64,000 nucleotides of DNA from an uncultured Lentisphaeria bacterium (GTDB lineage Bacteria > Fidelibacterota > UBA8477 > JABMPR01), in NCBI GenBank assembly GCA_964454335.1, contig CAYVVT010000002.1, positions 211,436 to 275,435 of the forward strand, written 5' to 3'. The position numbers were made by a program, and so were the translations under genes. Below, piece after piece: positions 43,654-48,132 of the stretch (its first letter is position 1; every line of letters begins with the position of its first letter). The notes under the pieces are model-generated. The model was given only the letters and a program-made list of their open reading frames with translations. It did no database searches and was not told where the DNA came from.

Positions 43654-46600
43654 ATGCAAAAAGCCTTTCTCATAGTTCTTACCCTGGCTTCCCTGCTTTC
43701 AGCGGATTCAGAGATGCGTCCGGCTGTTCAGGTATCACCTACGGCGAACGGGACCGTGCTGACATTTGATTTCAGTCATATTGAAGTCTTAGAGTGGGCT
43801 GAGTTGTTATCGGATCCCGATCTTTATCCCGTCTCCGGGTATGGCATAAGCGGAAATCTTGGCGATGCAGCCCTGCCGGTATTTACCCGGATGTTGCCGC
43901 TGGATGAGACAGGGACGGGTGACATTGAGATTATTCACGAGGACTACCGGATCCTGGAAGCTGTGAGCCTCAAAGAGGTAGACCGAGGTCACCTTGAGAC
44001 TGAGCCCTTGAGTGCCCGAGCGGAATTCAACTGGCAACGCCCAGACAGTTACCTTCGGTTCCAGATCGGTGAGGTTCAGCACCTTGCCGAACAGGCCTTG
44101 CTGCCGGTGAGCATCCGGCCCATCCTGCTGGATCATGAGACTCGCAGTGTCAGCGCTTTACGGTCACTGTCTGTATTTATTCCGGGCCTGCACCTCGATC
44201 CTGATTTTCAGGTGGACCAGAATGGACAGATCAGATCCATCGCAACTCCCGATGACATCTTCGGCGATCTGGGTCATTATCTCATCATCACCAACCCAAC
44301 CTATGTGAACTTTCTTGACAATCTTGTGACCTGGAAGCAGCGCAAGGGGTATGAGGTTTCCGTCGTGACCACAGCGGAAACCGGTGTCTCTGCCAGTCAG
44401 ATCAAGAGCTATGTACAGACTGCGTATGATACGTGGACGTCAAGGCCCGACTATCTGCTGCTCATCGGTGACGAGGACCAGGGCATGCCGGCATTCTACA
44501 TCCAGAATCCCGGTGGCGAGAGTCGGGTGACGGATCATCCCTATTCGCTGCTTGAAGGTGACGATGTTTTTCCAGACCTCATGGTAGGGCGTCTGTCCAT
44601 GGACAGTGTTGCACAATTGCTGGCCATCATCAACAAGATCCTGGTCTATGAAAGTCAGCCGACCCTGTCGGACCCAGACTGGTTCAAACGGGCATTGATG
44701 CTCTGTACCATCACAGCTGCGGCATCTCCCCAGGACATCAGCAACTGGGTGCGCCGGAAACTGTTGGAGAACGGATACACCCAGGTGGATACTGTGTATT
44801 ATCCCCTCCAGGGTTCCATCAGTCCCATCTATACCGCTGTCAACAATGGACTGGGCTTTGTCAATTATCGGGGACTGGGTGCCTATAATGGCTGGCTGGG
44901 ACCCTGGTTCGACAATGGCGACCTCTATGGTCTTAATAACGGACAGATGCTGCCCATCGTAACCAGTATTGTCTGCGGCGGCGGTAATTTTGGTGCGAAC
45001 GTGGATCCCTGCTTTGGAGAGAGCTGGTTGAGGTTGGGAACCACGGCAGTGCCACGAGGCTCAGTGGCCTTTTTCGCCCCCAGCGAATTGCATACGCATA
45101 CACAATTCAACAATGTGATCAACGTGGGGATCTATGCTGCCATCTTTGACAATGACGTAACGGAACTTGGCCGGGCCATGTGGGGTGGCAAACAGGAGCT
45201 CTGGCTAAACTATCACCAGAACCAGTATCACCCTTTTGAGCAGACGCCGGAATTCTACATGCATGTTTATAATCTACTGGGTGATCCCGGCATGCAGATC
45301 TGGACGGACACGCCGGAAGAGCTCATGGTCACCCATCCTGCGAATCTGAATATGAGCAGCGATCATGTCGCTGTCACCGTAACAAATACAGCAGGGGAAC
45401 CTGTTGGGGACGTTTTTGTATACCTTTATAATGAGGAGAACGCGCTAGGCCGGCACACCGATGCCAGCGGCAGCGTCAGCCTGCCCTTCAATGCAGGCTG
45501 GGAAAGCGCCGTGGCTCTCACGCTTACAGGAACCAACAAGTATCCCTACCTGGCAACCATCCCTGTTTCAAGTGAAGAGGATCCAGTGCATCTGGACGAG
45601 TGGGACCTTGCAGGGGAGGGATTCCTGTCTGCAGGTGGATCCCATGGATTTGACATAACCTTAACCAATGGGGACCAGGATCTTGCGGATGTGCTGCTGA
45701 CCATCTCGGTGAGCGGTAGTGAGAGTGTAAGTGTCAATGAGCCCGTCCACTCTCTCGGTGATCTTGGTAGCGGGGAAACCATTGAGCTCAATGGCGCCGG
45801 GGAGATCAGCGTGGATAGCTCCACACCGCATGCAGACGTGGTGAGATTCGATCTAACACTTGAATCAGGGGCGGTATCATGGAATTGGCAGCAGACCCTG
45901 CCTGTCCAGGCACCTCAACTGGTCATCCAGGAGATCCAGGTCATAGAAGGTGAACTGGCTGCTGGAGATTCAGCTCGCGTGGGTCTGGTGCTGCAGAATA
46001 TCGGCGGCCAGGAAACCAGCGAACTCAGTCTCAGTATGCTCGAGCATCCCTTCGTGGAATGCGAAGCAGGCAGTTTGTATTGCCCACCGATACTCATTGA
46101 CAACGTTGTCGGAACAGAGAACATCAGGTGGTTCCACTTCTCGGATCAGCTTTTCCCCGGCGAGAGTGTCGAACTCCATTTCCTCTGTCAGCATGAAGGT
46201 CGGCAGGATACCCTGTCTATCGCCGTAGCCATTGGGGAGCTTTCCCGTTTTGCCCCATCACTTCCAGATGACTATGGATACCGGGTTTTCGACGATCAGG
46301 ATGTCTGCTATTCAGAATTCTCCATCTATGACTGGATCGAGATCGATCCTGATGCCGGAGGAAACGGATCGGTGCTTCCGCTGAATGATACCTATGAAGA
46401 AGCCGATGCAACCACCTTCCTTGAGCTGCCGTTTCCTGTGCAGTATTATGGCGAAAGCTATGCGGGCATCACCGTCTGTTCAAACGGCTGGATAGCCATG
46501 GGTTCTTCTCCTGAACGCAGTTTTCACAACCGCCGGATACCCTCGCCACTTGGACCAGCGGCCATGATCGCTCCCTACTGGGACGATCTGCGTACCTACC

Positions 46601-48132
46601 CGGGGGACGTCATAAGTCACACTGAAGCCGATGGCTCACTCTTTATCGTGGAGTGGAGCCGTGTCACACACCTGAGTTACAGCAACCAGATGAGCTTCCA
46701 GGTGATCTTCTTCAATTCGGAGATGTATCCCACCGCTACAGGGGATAACCGCATCAAGTTCCAGTACAAGGACTACTCCAACCAGGACTATTGGGCCAAC
46801 TATTCCACCACAGGTATCGAATCGCCCAACACCTTTACAGGGATCGAGTTGAGTTACAACAACCTCTACGATCCCAGTATCGATCAGATTGACCACAACC
46901 GGGCGTATATGTTCTCAACCGAGCGGGGTCAGAGATTATCTGCACCCATCCTGGAATTAGGATCAACCCAACTCGTATTCGAACAGAATCCATGGGTTAT
47001 CAACCAGGATTCATTCCTGCTGTCAAATACAGGGGAGTCCCTGCTCATTTACGACATTGATATTCCAGATGAACCTGCGTTGCCACCGGCCCCGAATCCA
47101 TTCGCAGATTTCAGTTTTACCAAGGGCGGCAGCGAGCCGGAGACCATGTCCGCTCCCCGTGAGGGAACGGATGAATACGGCTATACCTGGCGGGATGAGA
47201 ATGATGAAGGCGGTCCAGGTTTCAACTGGGTAGATATCGTTGGACCAGAATACGAACTTGAATACGGTGATGACCCGGATGACTCGTCCCTGGGACCCTT
47301 TGCCATCGGTTTCCAGATGCCCTTCTATGATGAAATCTACTCCTCCTTGTATATCAGCACCAACGGGACCATCAGCTTTGTTTCAGATGCTTATCCCTGG
47401 GCAAATCTTCCTTTGCCGAACAGTGATGCGCCACCGGCCCTGCTGGCTCCCTGGTGGGATGACCTGAACAGTGACAATGTCGAGAACGGTACGATCTACA
47501 TGCGAGCCAACGGCATCGATTCCGTGATCATTACCTACCATGACTTCCCCAAATGGAGTACCGGGGAACGTCACACCTTCCAGGCGATCCTGCACTCGTA
47601 TGGGGACATCACATTCCAATATCTTTCCATGGGATCAGATGGTGGCTCCGCTACGGTGGGTATCCAGAACGAAGCCGGCAGTATCGGTCTCACCGTGTCG
47701 TTCAACGAAGACTCAGGTATCGACGGTGGATCTGCCATCCGTTTCAGCAGGCCGAACAACTGGTTCGCCCTGTCCGCCTGGTCCGGCACGATCGATCCGG
47801 GTGAAAGCGGGACCATCGGTGTGACCGCATTCAGTCTGGATCTCGAACCAGGCAACTACTCACTGCCCCTGACACTCATCTCTAATTCTGAGAATCTGCC
47901 CATGGCCGGACTTGAGGTGGTTCTCAATGTGGTACATGGCGATTTGTCAGATGGTGATATCAATGCCGATTATCGGATTGATGTAGGTGACCTGATGCTG
48001 GTCCTGGATTCCATTCTGGGTCATGAGGAACTGGACGCTGACAGCTTCCTGCGTGCAGATCTCTGGGCGGATGGAATCCTTGATATCCGTGATGCGGTAT
48101 TGTTGGTGGAGTTGATCCTTTTATGGGTATGA
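43654..48132 (+). CDS. gingipain-like C25-family cysteine peptidase homolog, 1492 aa, C-terminal dockerin-like module
   Basis: Start taken at ATG 43654 (signal MQKAFLIVLTLASLLSA), 8 nt after the upstream stop. C25 hallmarks YLLLIGDEDQGMP, FPDLMVGRLS, VNYRGLGAYNGW, IVCGGGNFG, GDPGMQIW. C-terminus has two calcium-loop-like repeats (DINADYRIDVGD, DLWADGILDIRD). Confidence 0.75.
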   Translation: MQKAFLIVLTLASLLSADSEMRPAVQVSPTANGTVLTFDFSHIEVLEWAELLSDPDLYPVSGYGISGNLGDAALPVFTRMLPLDETGTGDIEIIHEDYRILEAVSLKEVDRGHLETEPLSARAEFNWQRPDSYLRFQIGEVQHLAEQALLPVSIRPILLDHETRSVSALRSLSVFIPGLHLDPDFQVDQNGQIRSIATPDDIFGDLGHYLIITNPTYVNFLDNLVTWKQRKGYEVSVVTTAETGVSASQIKSYVQTAYDTWTSRPDYLLLIGDEDQGMPAFYIQNPGGESRVTDHPYSLLEGDDVFPDLMVGRLSMDSVAQLLAIINKILVYESQPTLSDPDWFKRALMLCTITAAASPQDISNWVRRKLLENGYTQVDTVYYPLQGSISPIYTAVNNGLGFVNYRGLGAYNGWLGPWFDNGDLYGLNNGQMLPIVTSIVCGGGNFGANVDPCFGESWLRLGTTAVPRGSVAFFAPSELHTHTQFNNVINVGIYAAIFDNDVTELGRAMWGGKQELWLNYHQNQYHPFEQTPEFYMHVYNLLGDPGMQIWTDTPEELMVTHPANLNMSSDHVAVTVTNTAGEPVGDVFVYLYNEENALGRHTDASGSVSLPFNAGWESAVALTLTGTNKYPYLATIPVSSEEDPVHLDEWDLAGEGFLSAGGSHGFDITLTNGDQDLADVLLTISVSGSESVSVNEPVHSLGDLGSGETIELNGAGEISVDSSTPHADVVRFDLTLESGAVSWNWQQTLPVQAPQLVIQEIQVIEGELAAGDSARVGLVLQNIGGQETSELSLSMLEHPFVECEAGSLYCPPILIDNVVGTENIRWFHFSDQLFPGESVELHFLCQHEGRQDTLSIAVAIGELSRFAPSLPDDYGYRVFDDQDVCYSEFSIYDWIEIDPDAGGNGSVLPLNDTYEEADATTFLELPFPVQYYGESYAGITVCSNGWIAMGSSPERSFHNRRIPSPLGPAAMIAPYWDDLRTYPGDVISHTEADGSLFIVEWSRVTHLSYSNQMSFQVIFFNSEMYPTATGDNRIKFQYKDYSNQDYWANYSTTGIESPNTFTGIELSYNNLYDPSIDQIDHNRAYMFSTERGQRLSAPILELGSTQLVFEQNPWVINQDSFLLSNTGESLLIYDIDIPDEPALPPAPNPFADFSFTKGGSEPETMSAPREGTDEYGYTWRDENDEGGPGFNWVDIVGPEYELEYGDDPDDSSLGPFAIGFQMPFYDEIYSSLYISTNGTISFVSDAYPWANLPLPNSDAPPALLAPWWDDLNSDNVENGTIYMRANGIDSVIITYHDFPKWSTGERHTFQAILHSYGDITFQYLSMGSDGGSATVGIQNEAGSIGLTVSFNEDSGIDGGSAIRFSRPNNWFALSAWSGTIDPGESGTIGVTAFSLDLEPGNYSLPLTLISNSENLPMAGLEVVLNVVHGDLSDGDINADYRIDVGDLMLVLDSILGHEELDADSFLRADLWADGILDIRDAVLLVELILLWV

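What the first reader, a model, noticed from the sequence alone, without database searches (positions are those of the whole stretch)
46400..47560. Unassigned repeated module (SNGW...AP-WDDL) present twice in each large C25 protein and once in the 1040-aa paralog
Downstream of the C25 core each 1500-aa protein carries two copies of a ~170-aa module with a shared signature: TVCSNGWIAMGSSPE.SFHNRRIPSP.GPAAMIAPYWDDL and ISTNGTISF.....PWANLPLPN.DAPPALLAPWWDDL, followed by FIVEW and SFQVIF. The same module is at 50900-52100 and, in one copy, in the third paralog (TINSNGWAAFGPDY...MMAPFWDDL, about 60530-61000). I cannot place it in a known family from memory; it could be a substrate- or carbohydrate-binding jelly-roll module.
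Basis: seen in the sequence. Interest (0 to 1): 0.45.

Follow-up and report, generated by a model that had tools for sequence, protein, structure and literature searches.

The report
Bacterial nidogen-like (NIDO) domains in C25 proteins
The repeated "SNGW…AP-WDDL" module is real, but it is a divergent bacterial copy of the known NIDO (nidogen-like) extracellular domain, which is very common in uncultured bacteria and still has no proven function or solved structure.

Summary
The window has exactly five copies of a 195-225 aa module: two in each 1500-aa C25 protein and one in the 1040-aa paralog.

The family is very large: 44,963 clusters at 50% identity, with up to 15 copies per protein. It occurs mostly outside C25 proteins, alongside Ig-like domains, S8 subtilases, T9SS or dockerin tails, and at the N-terminus of the gliding adhesin RemA.

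A "type 1" subtype sits about 2.4 kb downstream of a C25 domain in 72 of 80 related genome loci (Neomarinimicrobiota, Cloacimonadota and others).

The most likely role is a non-catalytic binding module. This is inferred, not shown.

In passing: this C25 clade keeps the catalytic Cys (77/77) but never has the canonical catalytic His (0/77).

The parts
46267..46929 (+). NIDO-family module, copy A1 (type 1), residues 925-1145 of C25 protein A
   Evidence: Alignment and limits. Pfam NIDO 24.4 bits. AF2 model pLDDT 94.7, 12 beta strands.
47170..47754 (+). NIDO-family module, copy A2 (type 2), residues 1226-1420 of protein A
   Evidence: Pfam NIDO 32.1 bits, E 1.4e-7. 25% identical to A1, E 1e-8.
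50848..51510 (+). NIDO-family module, copy B1 (type 1), residues 877-1097 of C25 protein B
   Evidence: Pfam NIDO 26.7 bits. HMM domain E 1.9e-64.
51751..52335 (+). NIDO-family module, copy B2 (type 2), residues 1178-1372 of protein B
   Evidence: Pfam NIDO 26.0 bits. HMM domain E 8.8e-60.
60375..61049 (+). NIDO-family module, copy C1 (type 1), residues 714-938 of the 1040-aa paralog C
   Evidence: Pfam NIDO 30.0 bits, covering profile positions 1-108 of 186. HMM domain E 1.2e-63.
44278..45297 (+). C25 (gingipain-like) domain of protein A. The canonical catalytic His is replaced by Leu; the Cys is kept.
   Evidence: Pfam PF01364 E 9e-62. Alignment to RgpB 4ief_B/1cvr_A.
48856..49878 (+). C25 domain of protein B
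   Evidence: Pfam PF01364 E 1.4e-61.
58446..59426 (+). C25 domain of paralog C
   Evidence: Pfam PF01364 E 5.4e-58.
46930..47169 (+). 80-aa linker between the two modules of A, with no family assigned
   Evidence: No Pfam hit at E<=1. Not similar to the segment after module 2.
47953..48129 (+). C-terminal type I dockerin of protein A
   Evidence: The excised segment scores 25.3 bits against a Pfam Dockerin_1 cut-off of 22.9.
52534..52692 (+). C-terminal type I dockerin of protein B
   Evidence: 25.2 bits against a cut-off of 22.9.
61119..61343 (+). T9SS C-terminal sorting domain of paralog C
   Evidence: Pfam PF18962 34.2 bits and TIGR04183 27.4 bits.

Best explanation
Each copy is a bacterial member of the NIDO (nidogen-like) domain family. 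It is an extracellular, all-beta sandwich domain of about 200 residues, homologous to the NIDO domain of animal nidogens, alpha-tectorin, mucin-4 and SNED1. It is extended at its N-terminus by a bacterial 'YGY..W..I' segment. The window proteins are exported C25-family proteins of a Marinimicrobia-like bacterium. They are built as signal peptide - C25 domain - Ig-like region - NIDO type 1 - linker - NIDO type 2 - dockerin (A, B), or C25 - NIDO type 1 - T9SS sorting domain (C). Shown here: the identity of the module, its fold class, its very large distribution, and the conserved C25...NIDO order. Inferred: the module is non-catalytic and acts as a binding (adhesin) module that holds the protein on a polymeric target such as protein or glycan matrix on particles or cell surfaces. 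In that role it would work like the adhesin domains appended to gingipains or the binding modules of glycoside hydrolases. My confidence is about 0.9 for 'NIDO-family domain' and about 0.5 for 'binding module'; the single figure given (0.6) is for the statement as a whole.

Exported context. Hydrophobic N-terminal signal sequences are visible. Paralog C has a T9SS sorting domain and A and B have dockerins. Neighbouring genes also carry T9SS tails.

Binding role. The module is promiscuous and often tandemly repeated, with up to 15 copies, in giant proteins that also carry Ig-like domains, S8 subtilases and PEP-CTERM, T9SS or dockerin anchors. It forms the N-terminal domain of the Flavobacterium gliding adhesin RemA (E 1.2e-22). 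The tectorin literature describes alpha-tectorin's NIDO as collagen-binding. The only structural neighbours are beta-supersandwich domains of carbohydrate-active enzymes.

Conserved coupling. 72 of 80 related genome loci have a C25 domain about 2.4 kb upstream on the same strand.
Confidence: 0.6

Rival explanations
1. The module is specifically a carbohydrate-binding module, related to the galactose-mutarotase-like supersandwich domains, and targets the protein to glycans.
Confidence: 0.2
2. The module has no ligand. It is a rigid structural or spacer unit that extends the catalytic domain away from the cell surface, like the Ig-like domains it alternates with.
For: It occurs in long tandem arrays alternating with Ig-like domains in giant surface proteins. 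It lies between the enzyme domain and the anchoring domain.
Against: There is strong conservation of polar and aromatic motifs (SNG, AP.WDDL, TFQ, FQY, ATVGI) from bacteria to animals. The type 1 subtype is tied to C25 at a fixed position across many phyla. Both facts argue for more than a spacer.
Confidence: 0.15
3. The type 1 module is a functional partner of this His-less C25 domain. It would act within the molecule in regulation, substrate presentation or completion of the active site, rather than as an independent binding module.
For: Type 1 modules lie about 800 residues after a C25 domain in 72 of 80 loci across at least 8 candidate phyla. In that clade the His211 equivalent is never His, while the Cys is conserved in 77 of 77.
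Against: No His is conserved in type 1 modules: SFHNRR in A1 and B1 but YFRNWS in C1. The same domain family works in thousands of proteins without C25. No inter-domain contact could be evaluated.
Confidence: 0.1
4. The module is a new family unrelated to NIDO, and the Pfam hits are chance matches to a short motif.
For: The Pfam hits are at threshold and short. The RemA copy gets no Pfam hit at all.
Confidence: 0.03

Closest known systems
Animal NIDO domain (Pfam PF06119 / SMART SM00539) of nidogen-1/2, alpha-tectorin, mucin-4, SNED1, Drosophila mesh and C. elegans DEX-1
   Same: It is homologous (HHalign 97.3%). It shares the motifs T/S-N-G, A-P-[FW]-x-D-L, T-F-Q, aromatic-x-Y and V-G. The strand order is the same. 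It is extracellular. It has no solved structure and no agreed function.
   Different: The bacterial module has an extra N-terminal ~45-residue 'YGY..W..I' segment. It lacks the ~22-residue helical insertion of nidogen. It has WDDL where nidogen has LADL. It is often tandemly repeated. It sits in enzymes and adhesins with T9SS, dockerin or PEP-CTERM tails rather than with EGF, vWD or ZP domains.
N-terminal domain (about residues 47-192) of Flavobacterium johnsoniae RemA, a T9SS-secreted mobile gliding adhesin (sequence in PDB 8GL6 chain D)
   Same: It is the only PDB-deposited sequence that matches the module profile (E 3.5e-14 and 1.2e-22). It is a T9SS cargo protein like paralog C. The domain lies at the end far from the C-terminal sorting domain.
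   Different: RemA has no C25 domain. In the 8GL6 work the text discusses only RemA's C-terminal sorting domain bound in the translocon, so whether the N-terminal domain was modelled was not checked, and no structure of it was found. The RemA segment is not detected by Pfam NIDO at E<=1.
Haemagglutinin/adhesin ('cleaved adhesin') domains following the catalytic domain of Porphyromonas gingipains RgpA and Kgp
   Same: The position and logic match: non-catalytic beta-sandwich modules C-terminal to a C25 catalytic domain plus an Ig-like domain in a T9SS-exported protein. This is a functional analogy from my general knowledge of gingipains.
   Different: There is no sequence relationship: neither the whole proteins nor the modules hit the cleaved-adhesin family in Pfam. 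The fold class differs. In addition, the C25 domains here lack the catalytic His that gingipains have.
Galactose-mutarotase-like beta-supersandwich domains (N-terminal domains of GH65, GH94, GH95 and GH149 enzymes; YidC P1; aldose 1-epimerases)
   Same: These are the best structural neighbours of both the module and nidogen NIDO. They are large two-sheet beta sandwiches with 105-125 residues superposable.

Membership tests
NIDO / nidogen-like domain (Pfam PF06119) | Match to the Pfam HMM at or above the curated gathering score (25 bits) | tested here: met
   The excised modules score A2 32.1, C1 30.0, B1 26.7, B2 26.0 and A1 24.4 (just below). Whole proteins A and B score 44.7 and 39.8, and C scores 24.5. 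This is borderline but consistent across all five copies.
NIDO / nidogen-like domain (Pfam PF06119) | Coverage of the whole 186-position domain model | tested here: inconclusive
   HMMER aligns only positions 2-52 in four copies and 1-108 in C1. HHalign is confident for module 47-150 against nidogen 23-157. It extends colinearly to the end only at low confidence. MAFFT aligns the C-terminal FQY and VGI motifs with nidogen F.Y and VGF.
NIDO / nidogen-like domain (Pfam PF06119) | Profile-level homology to bona fide animal NIDO domains | tested here: met
It was validated as NIDO (207 bits, positions 2-186 of 186) and as nidogen-1 (98% and 77% identity to database entries). HHalign gives 94% and 97.3%, E 2.2e-11, against a 5-sequence nidogen alignment.
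NIDO / nidogen-like domain (Pfam PF06119) | Same three-dimensional fold as animal NIDO | tested here: met
NIDO / nidogen-like domain (Pfam PF06119) | Extracellular location | tested here: met
   N-terminal hydrophobic signal sequences are visible. Paralog C has a T9SS sorting domain. A and B have dockerins.
Gingipain haemagglutinin / cleaved-adhesin domain | Sequence match to the adhesin domain family that follows gingipain catalytic domains | tested here: not met
   No such Pfam family is reported for the whole proteins at E<=1 or for the modules at E<=10.
Galactose-mutarotase-like supersandwich / carbohydrate-binding modules | Demonstrated sugar binding | not testable with these tools
   This requires glycan arrays or calorimetry on purified modules.

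The most novel reading that the evidence does not exclude
The pairing of a C25 domain that keeps its Cys but lacks the canonical His with a dedicated type 1 NIDO domain may be a conserved surface device of Marinimicrobia, Cloacimonadota, Eisenbacteria, KSB1 and related candidate phyla. It would work differently from gingipains, for example as a non-canonical peptidase or transpeptidase, or as a pure binding protein, with the NIDO domain as an obligatory partner. More broadly, the animal matrix NIDO domain would be one small branch of a much larger prokaryotic family of surface-binding domains that current Pfam models largely miss.
Probability: 0.2. Interest if true: 0.55.

Novelty: new member of a known kind. 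Interest (0 to 1): 0.27.

Why it matters
The finding as written, an unassigned module, is resolved: it is a NIDO-family domain, and the source database already flagged it faintly. Three points may still be useful.

1. The bacterial branch is very large (about 45,000 clusters at 50% identity). The Pfam model detects it poorly, so many large surface proteins of uncultured bacteria carry an unrecognised domain.

2. NIDO has no solved structure and no agreed function, even in human nidogens, alpha-tectorin (deafness), mucin-4 and SNED1. Small, well-predicted, probably easily expressed bacterial copies could provide the first experimental structure and ligand tests.

3. C25 'gingipains' are counted as extracellular proteases in Marinimicrobia and Cloacimonetes genomes when carbon cycling is inferred (PMC8359207). 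The clade seen here lacks the canonical catalytic His, so that inference deserves a check.

Tried and rejected
- Foldseek against the PDB gave no hit at E<=1e-3; the best was 0.16 with TM 0.13.
- The AFDB50 library was unavailable, so no direct comparison with AlphaFold nidogen, TECTA or MUC4 models was possible.
- The sequence search of the PDB found only RemA. The 8GL6 paper discusses only RemA's C-terminal sorting domain.
- The original RemA paper (PMC3393505) is not held.
- Literature searches for bacterial NIDO ('NIDO domain'+bacteria, PF06119, 'nidogen-like domain'+bacterial, and a badly designed multi-term search) returned only animal papers. The 'giant genes' preprint does not mention NIDO.
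- NCBIfam gave only far-sub-threshold PorU-like hits for the C25 part and nothing for the module.
- The 38-sequence alignment was too diverse for the locus scanner, so I used the five-copy alignment instead.
- The linkers after each module have no Pfam family and are not similar to each other. The idea of a duplicated 'NIDO + Ig' unit in these proteins is therefore unsupported by sequence.
- I looked for a His in type 1 modules that might replace the missing catalytic His. None is conserved.
- The first regular expressions for the C25 motif failed and were replaced by alignment-based counting.
- A jelly-roll or CBM assignment was rejected for lack of any sequence or significant structural match.
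Full report
**1. The observation**

The region contains three long same-strand ORFs: A 43495-48132 (1545 aa), B 48220-52713 (1497 aa) and C 58236-61358 (1040 aa). The source annotation starts A at Met54, giving 1492 aa.

- It begins at a 'D.YGY…(Y/F).W.(D/E)(I/L)' segment.
- It ends after 'ATVGI(E/Q)…G…(Y/F)N…A(I/L)'.
- That gives 221, 195, 221, 195 and 225 residues.

The copies are A1 46267-46929, A2 47170-47754, B1 50848-51510, B2 51751-52335 and C1 60375-61049.

The repeat is well beyond chance:
- A1 and A2 are 25% identical with BLASTP E 1e-8.
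- A2 and B2 match C1 at E 8e-8 and 7e-11.
- An HMM built from the family finds exactly these five copies in a six-frame translation of the whole window.

There are two subtypes. Type 1 (A1, B1, C1) has a ~12-residue insertion before the FQY strand and a longer C-terminus. Type 2 (A2, B2) lacks both.

**2. What it is**

Pfam places all five copies in NIDO (PF06119, 'Nidogen-like') at 24.4-32.1 bits against a curated cut-off of 25. HMMER aligns only profile positions 2-52 of 186 in four copies and 1-108 in C1. Because this is borderline, I tested membership in four independent ways.

(a) Intermediates.
- 23 of 38 module homologues hit NIDO, with a best E of 1.7e-13.
- 28 of 32 sampled multi-copy relatives hit NIDO, with a best E of 2.2e-24.

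(b) Profile against profile.
- It scores 207 bits over NIDO positions 2-186.
- It is 98% and 77% identical to database nidogen-1 entries.
- HHalign of the 38-sequence module profile against it gives 94% probability.
- Against a 5-sequence nidogen-1/2 alignment it gives 97.3%, E 2.2e-11, covering module 47-150 and nidogen 23-157.
- With greedy extension the alignment stays colinear to the end of the domain, at low confidence.

(c) Motifs. In a mixed MAFFT alignment of nidogens, bacterial proteins and the window copies:
- N-G of (T/S)NG and the D of WDDL/ADLD are invariant.
- A-P, the F of TFQ, the Y of FQY/FLY and the G of VGI/VGF are nearly invariant.
- Nidogen has one ~22-residue insertion.

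(d) Fold.
- An AlphaFold2 model of A1 built on the 38-sequence alignment is very confident (pLDDT 94.7, pTM 0.92) and all-beta with 12 strands.
- A model of a nidogen-1-like protein has a core pLDDT of about 90 and the same strand order, plus one inserted helix.
- Both retrieve the same weak neighbours: the N-terminal beta-supersandwich domains of GH95, GH65, GH94 and GH149 enzymes, YidC P1 and aldose epimerases.

I conclude that the module is a NIDO-family domain with a bacterial N-terminal extension.

**3. Distribution**

A profile search of 1.84 billion cluster representatives finds:

| E-value threshold | proteins |
|---|---|
| <=1e-3 | 44,963 |
| <=1e-10 | 31,111 |
| <=1e-30 | 8,463 |

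- The top hits are giant proteins of 1,000-5,000 aa with up to 15 copies.
- Only 6 of the top 150 contain a C25 domain.
- Co-occurring Pfam families in a sample of 32 are HYDIN/ASH/DUF1573 Ig-like domains, S8 subtilases (5 proteins), CarboxypepD_reg, T9SS sorting domains, dockerins, LTD and others.
- Shorter metagenomic proteins combine the module with T9SS, FlgD-Ig, dockerin or PEP-CTERM tails. They come from Cloacimonetes, WOR-3, TA06, the FCB group and some archaea.
- The only sequence deposited in the PDB that matches is the N-terminal region (~47-192) of the Flavobacterium gliding adhesin RemA, at E 1.2e-22. Pfam NIDO does not detect that segment, which shows that the Pfam model misses part of the bacterial branch.

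**4. The C25 connection**

- The window is contig Ga0118720_1000162 of JGI metagenome 3300009374.
- A scan of one genome per species with the AP.WDD pattern found 446 relatives.
- The best 34 are 48-59% identical in the module. They are almost all Candidatus Neomarinimicrobiota MAGs, each with two modules about 900 nt apart.
- More distant loci carry one module. They come from KSB1, Calditrichota, Eisenbacteria, Cloacimonadota, Krumholzibacteriota, Zixibacteria, LCP-89 and Hydrothermota.
- In 72 of the 80 loci a C25 domain lies about 2.4 kb upstream on the same strand. Most of the other eight are cut short on the upstream side.
- Representatives with C25 show the same order: C25, then type 1, then type 2.
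- So the type 1 subtype is a conserved companion of this C25 clade, while the family as a whole is not tied to C25.

**5. How it probably works**

What is shown:
- The proteins are exported. N-terminal signal sequences are visible, paralog C has a T9SS sorting domain, and the excised C-termini of A and B pass the dockerin cut-off.
- The modules lie between the enzyme-like domain and the anchoring domain.
- Neighbouring genes encode other T9SS cargo, including an M14 carboxypeptidase.

What is inferred: the modules are non-catalytic binding units that keep the protein on a polymeric target. The inference rests on four things:
- the module's promiscuous, repeated use in adhesin-like giants and secreted proteases;
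- its position at the distal end of RemA;
- the ECM-binding role ascribed to animal NIDO, such as collagen binding by alpha-tectorin;
- the sandwich fold.

None of this is direct evidence. The animal literature itself says no function is clearly associated with NIDO and no structure exists. Rival readings (a sugar-specific module, an inert spacer, or an intramolecular partner of the C25 domain) cannot be excluded.

**6. A complication noticed on the way**

- Aligned to RgpB, whose catalytic residues are His211 and Cys244 (my own knowledge of gingipains), protein A has Leu at the His position (YRGLGAYNGW against YTGHGSETAW). It keeps the Cys (VCGGGNF).
- B has Leu and C has Trp at that position.
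- In 77 C25 domains from the related loci the His equivalent is never His (F 19, Y 18, L 12, W 8, I 5, gap 7, others 8). The Cys is present in all 77.
- These proteins may therefore not be canonical gingipain-type peptidases. That weakens any explanation of the module that assumes it feeds a protease.

**7. Verdict**

The 'unassigned' label is not: this is a divergent member of a known, if poorly understood, domain family. It is new only as an instance and as a C25-linked subtype. Interest is low to moderate.

Noticed in passing
window 44854-44901 (A), 49435-49482 (B), 58983-59030 (C); loci L002-L081: All three C25 domains have a hydrophobic residue (Leu, Leu, Trp) where gingipain RgpB has the catalytic His211 (GHG motif). 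The catalytic Cys244 equivalent is kept. Across 77 related C25 domains the position is never His (F/Y/L/W/I instead), and the Cys is present in 77 of 77. They may be pseudo-peptidases or use a non-canonical mechanism.
   Followed up: partly
window 47953-48129 and 52534-52692, versus 61119-61343: The two 1500-aa paralogs end in a type I dockerin (25.3 and 25.2 bits against a cut-off of 22.9 when excised). The 1040-aa paralog ends in a T9SS sorting domain. Close paralogs are therefore apparently anchored or exported by different means. I did not look for a cohesin partner.
   Followed up: partly
PDB 8gl6 chain D (RemA) residues ~47-192: The N-terminal domain of the Flavobacterium johnsoniae gliding adhesin RemA belongs to the same module family (E 1.2e-22), but Pfam NIDO does not detect it at E<=1. 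The Pfam model under-detects the bacterial branch.
   Followed up: partly
window 52784-55786, 55808-58198 and 33285-36473 (minus strand): The neighbourhood is rich in T9SS cargo genes: a 1000-aa protein with only a Por_Secre_tail hit, an M14 carboxypeptidase with CarboxypepD_reg and a T9SS tail, and a beta-helix protein with a T9SS tail. This looks like a locus of secreted or surface degradative proteins.
   Followed up: partly
window 39546-43645: Four consecutive same-strand ORFs (377, 289, 345 and 359 aa) directly upstream of protein A have no Pfam hit at E<=0.01.
   Followed up: no
window 43495-43656: The mechanical ORF for protein A starts 53 codons upstream of the likely true start (MQKAFLIVLTLASLLSA..., a signal peptide). 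The JGI gene call is 1492 aa, matching a start at Met54. The longer ORF overlaps the end of the preceding ORF (42566-43645).
   Followed up: partly
window 45556-46266, 46930-47169 and 47755-47952: About 235 aa between the C25 Ig-like domain and the first NIDO module, and the 80-aa and 66-aa segments after each module, have no Pfam assignment. The two short segments are not detectably similar to each other. In relatives the equivalent positions are often occupied by HYDIN/ASH/DUF1573 Ig-like domains.
   Followed up: partly
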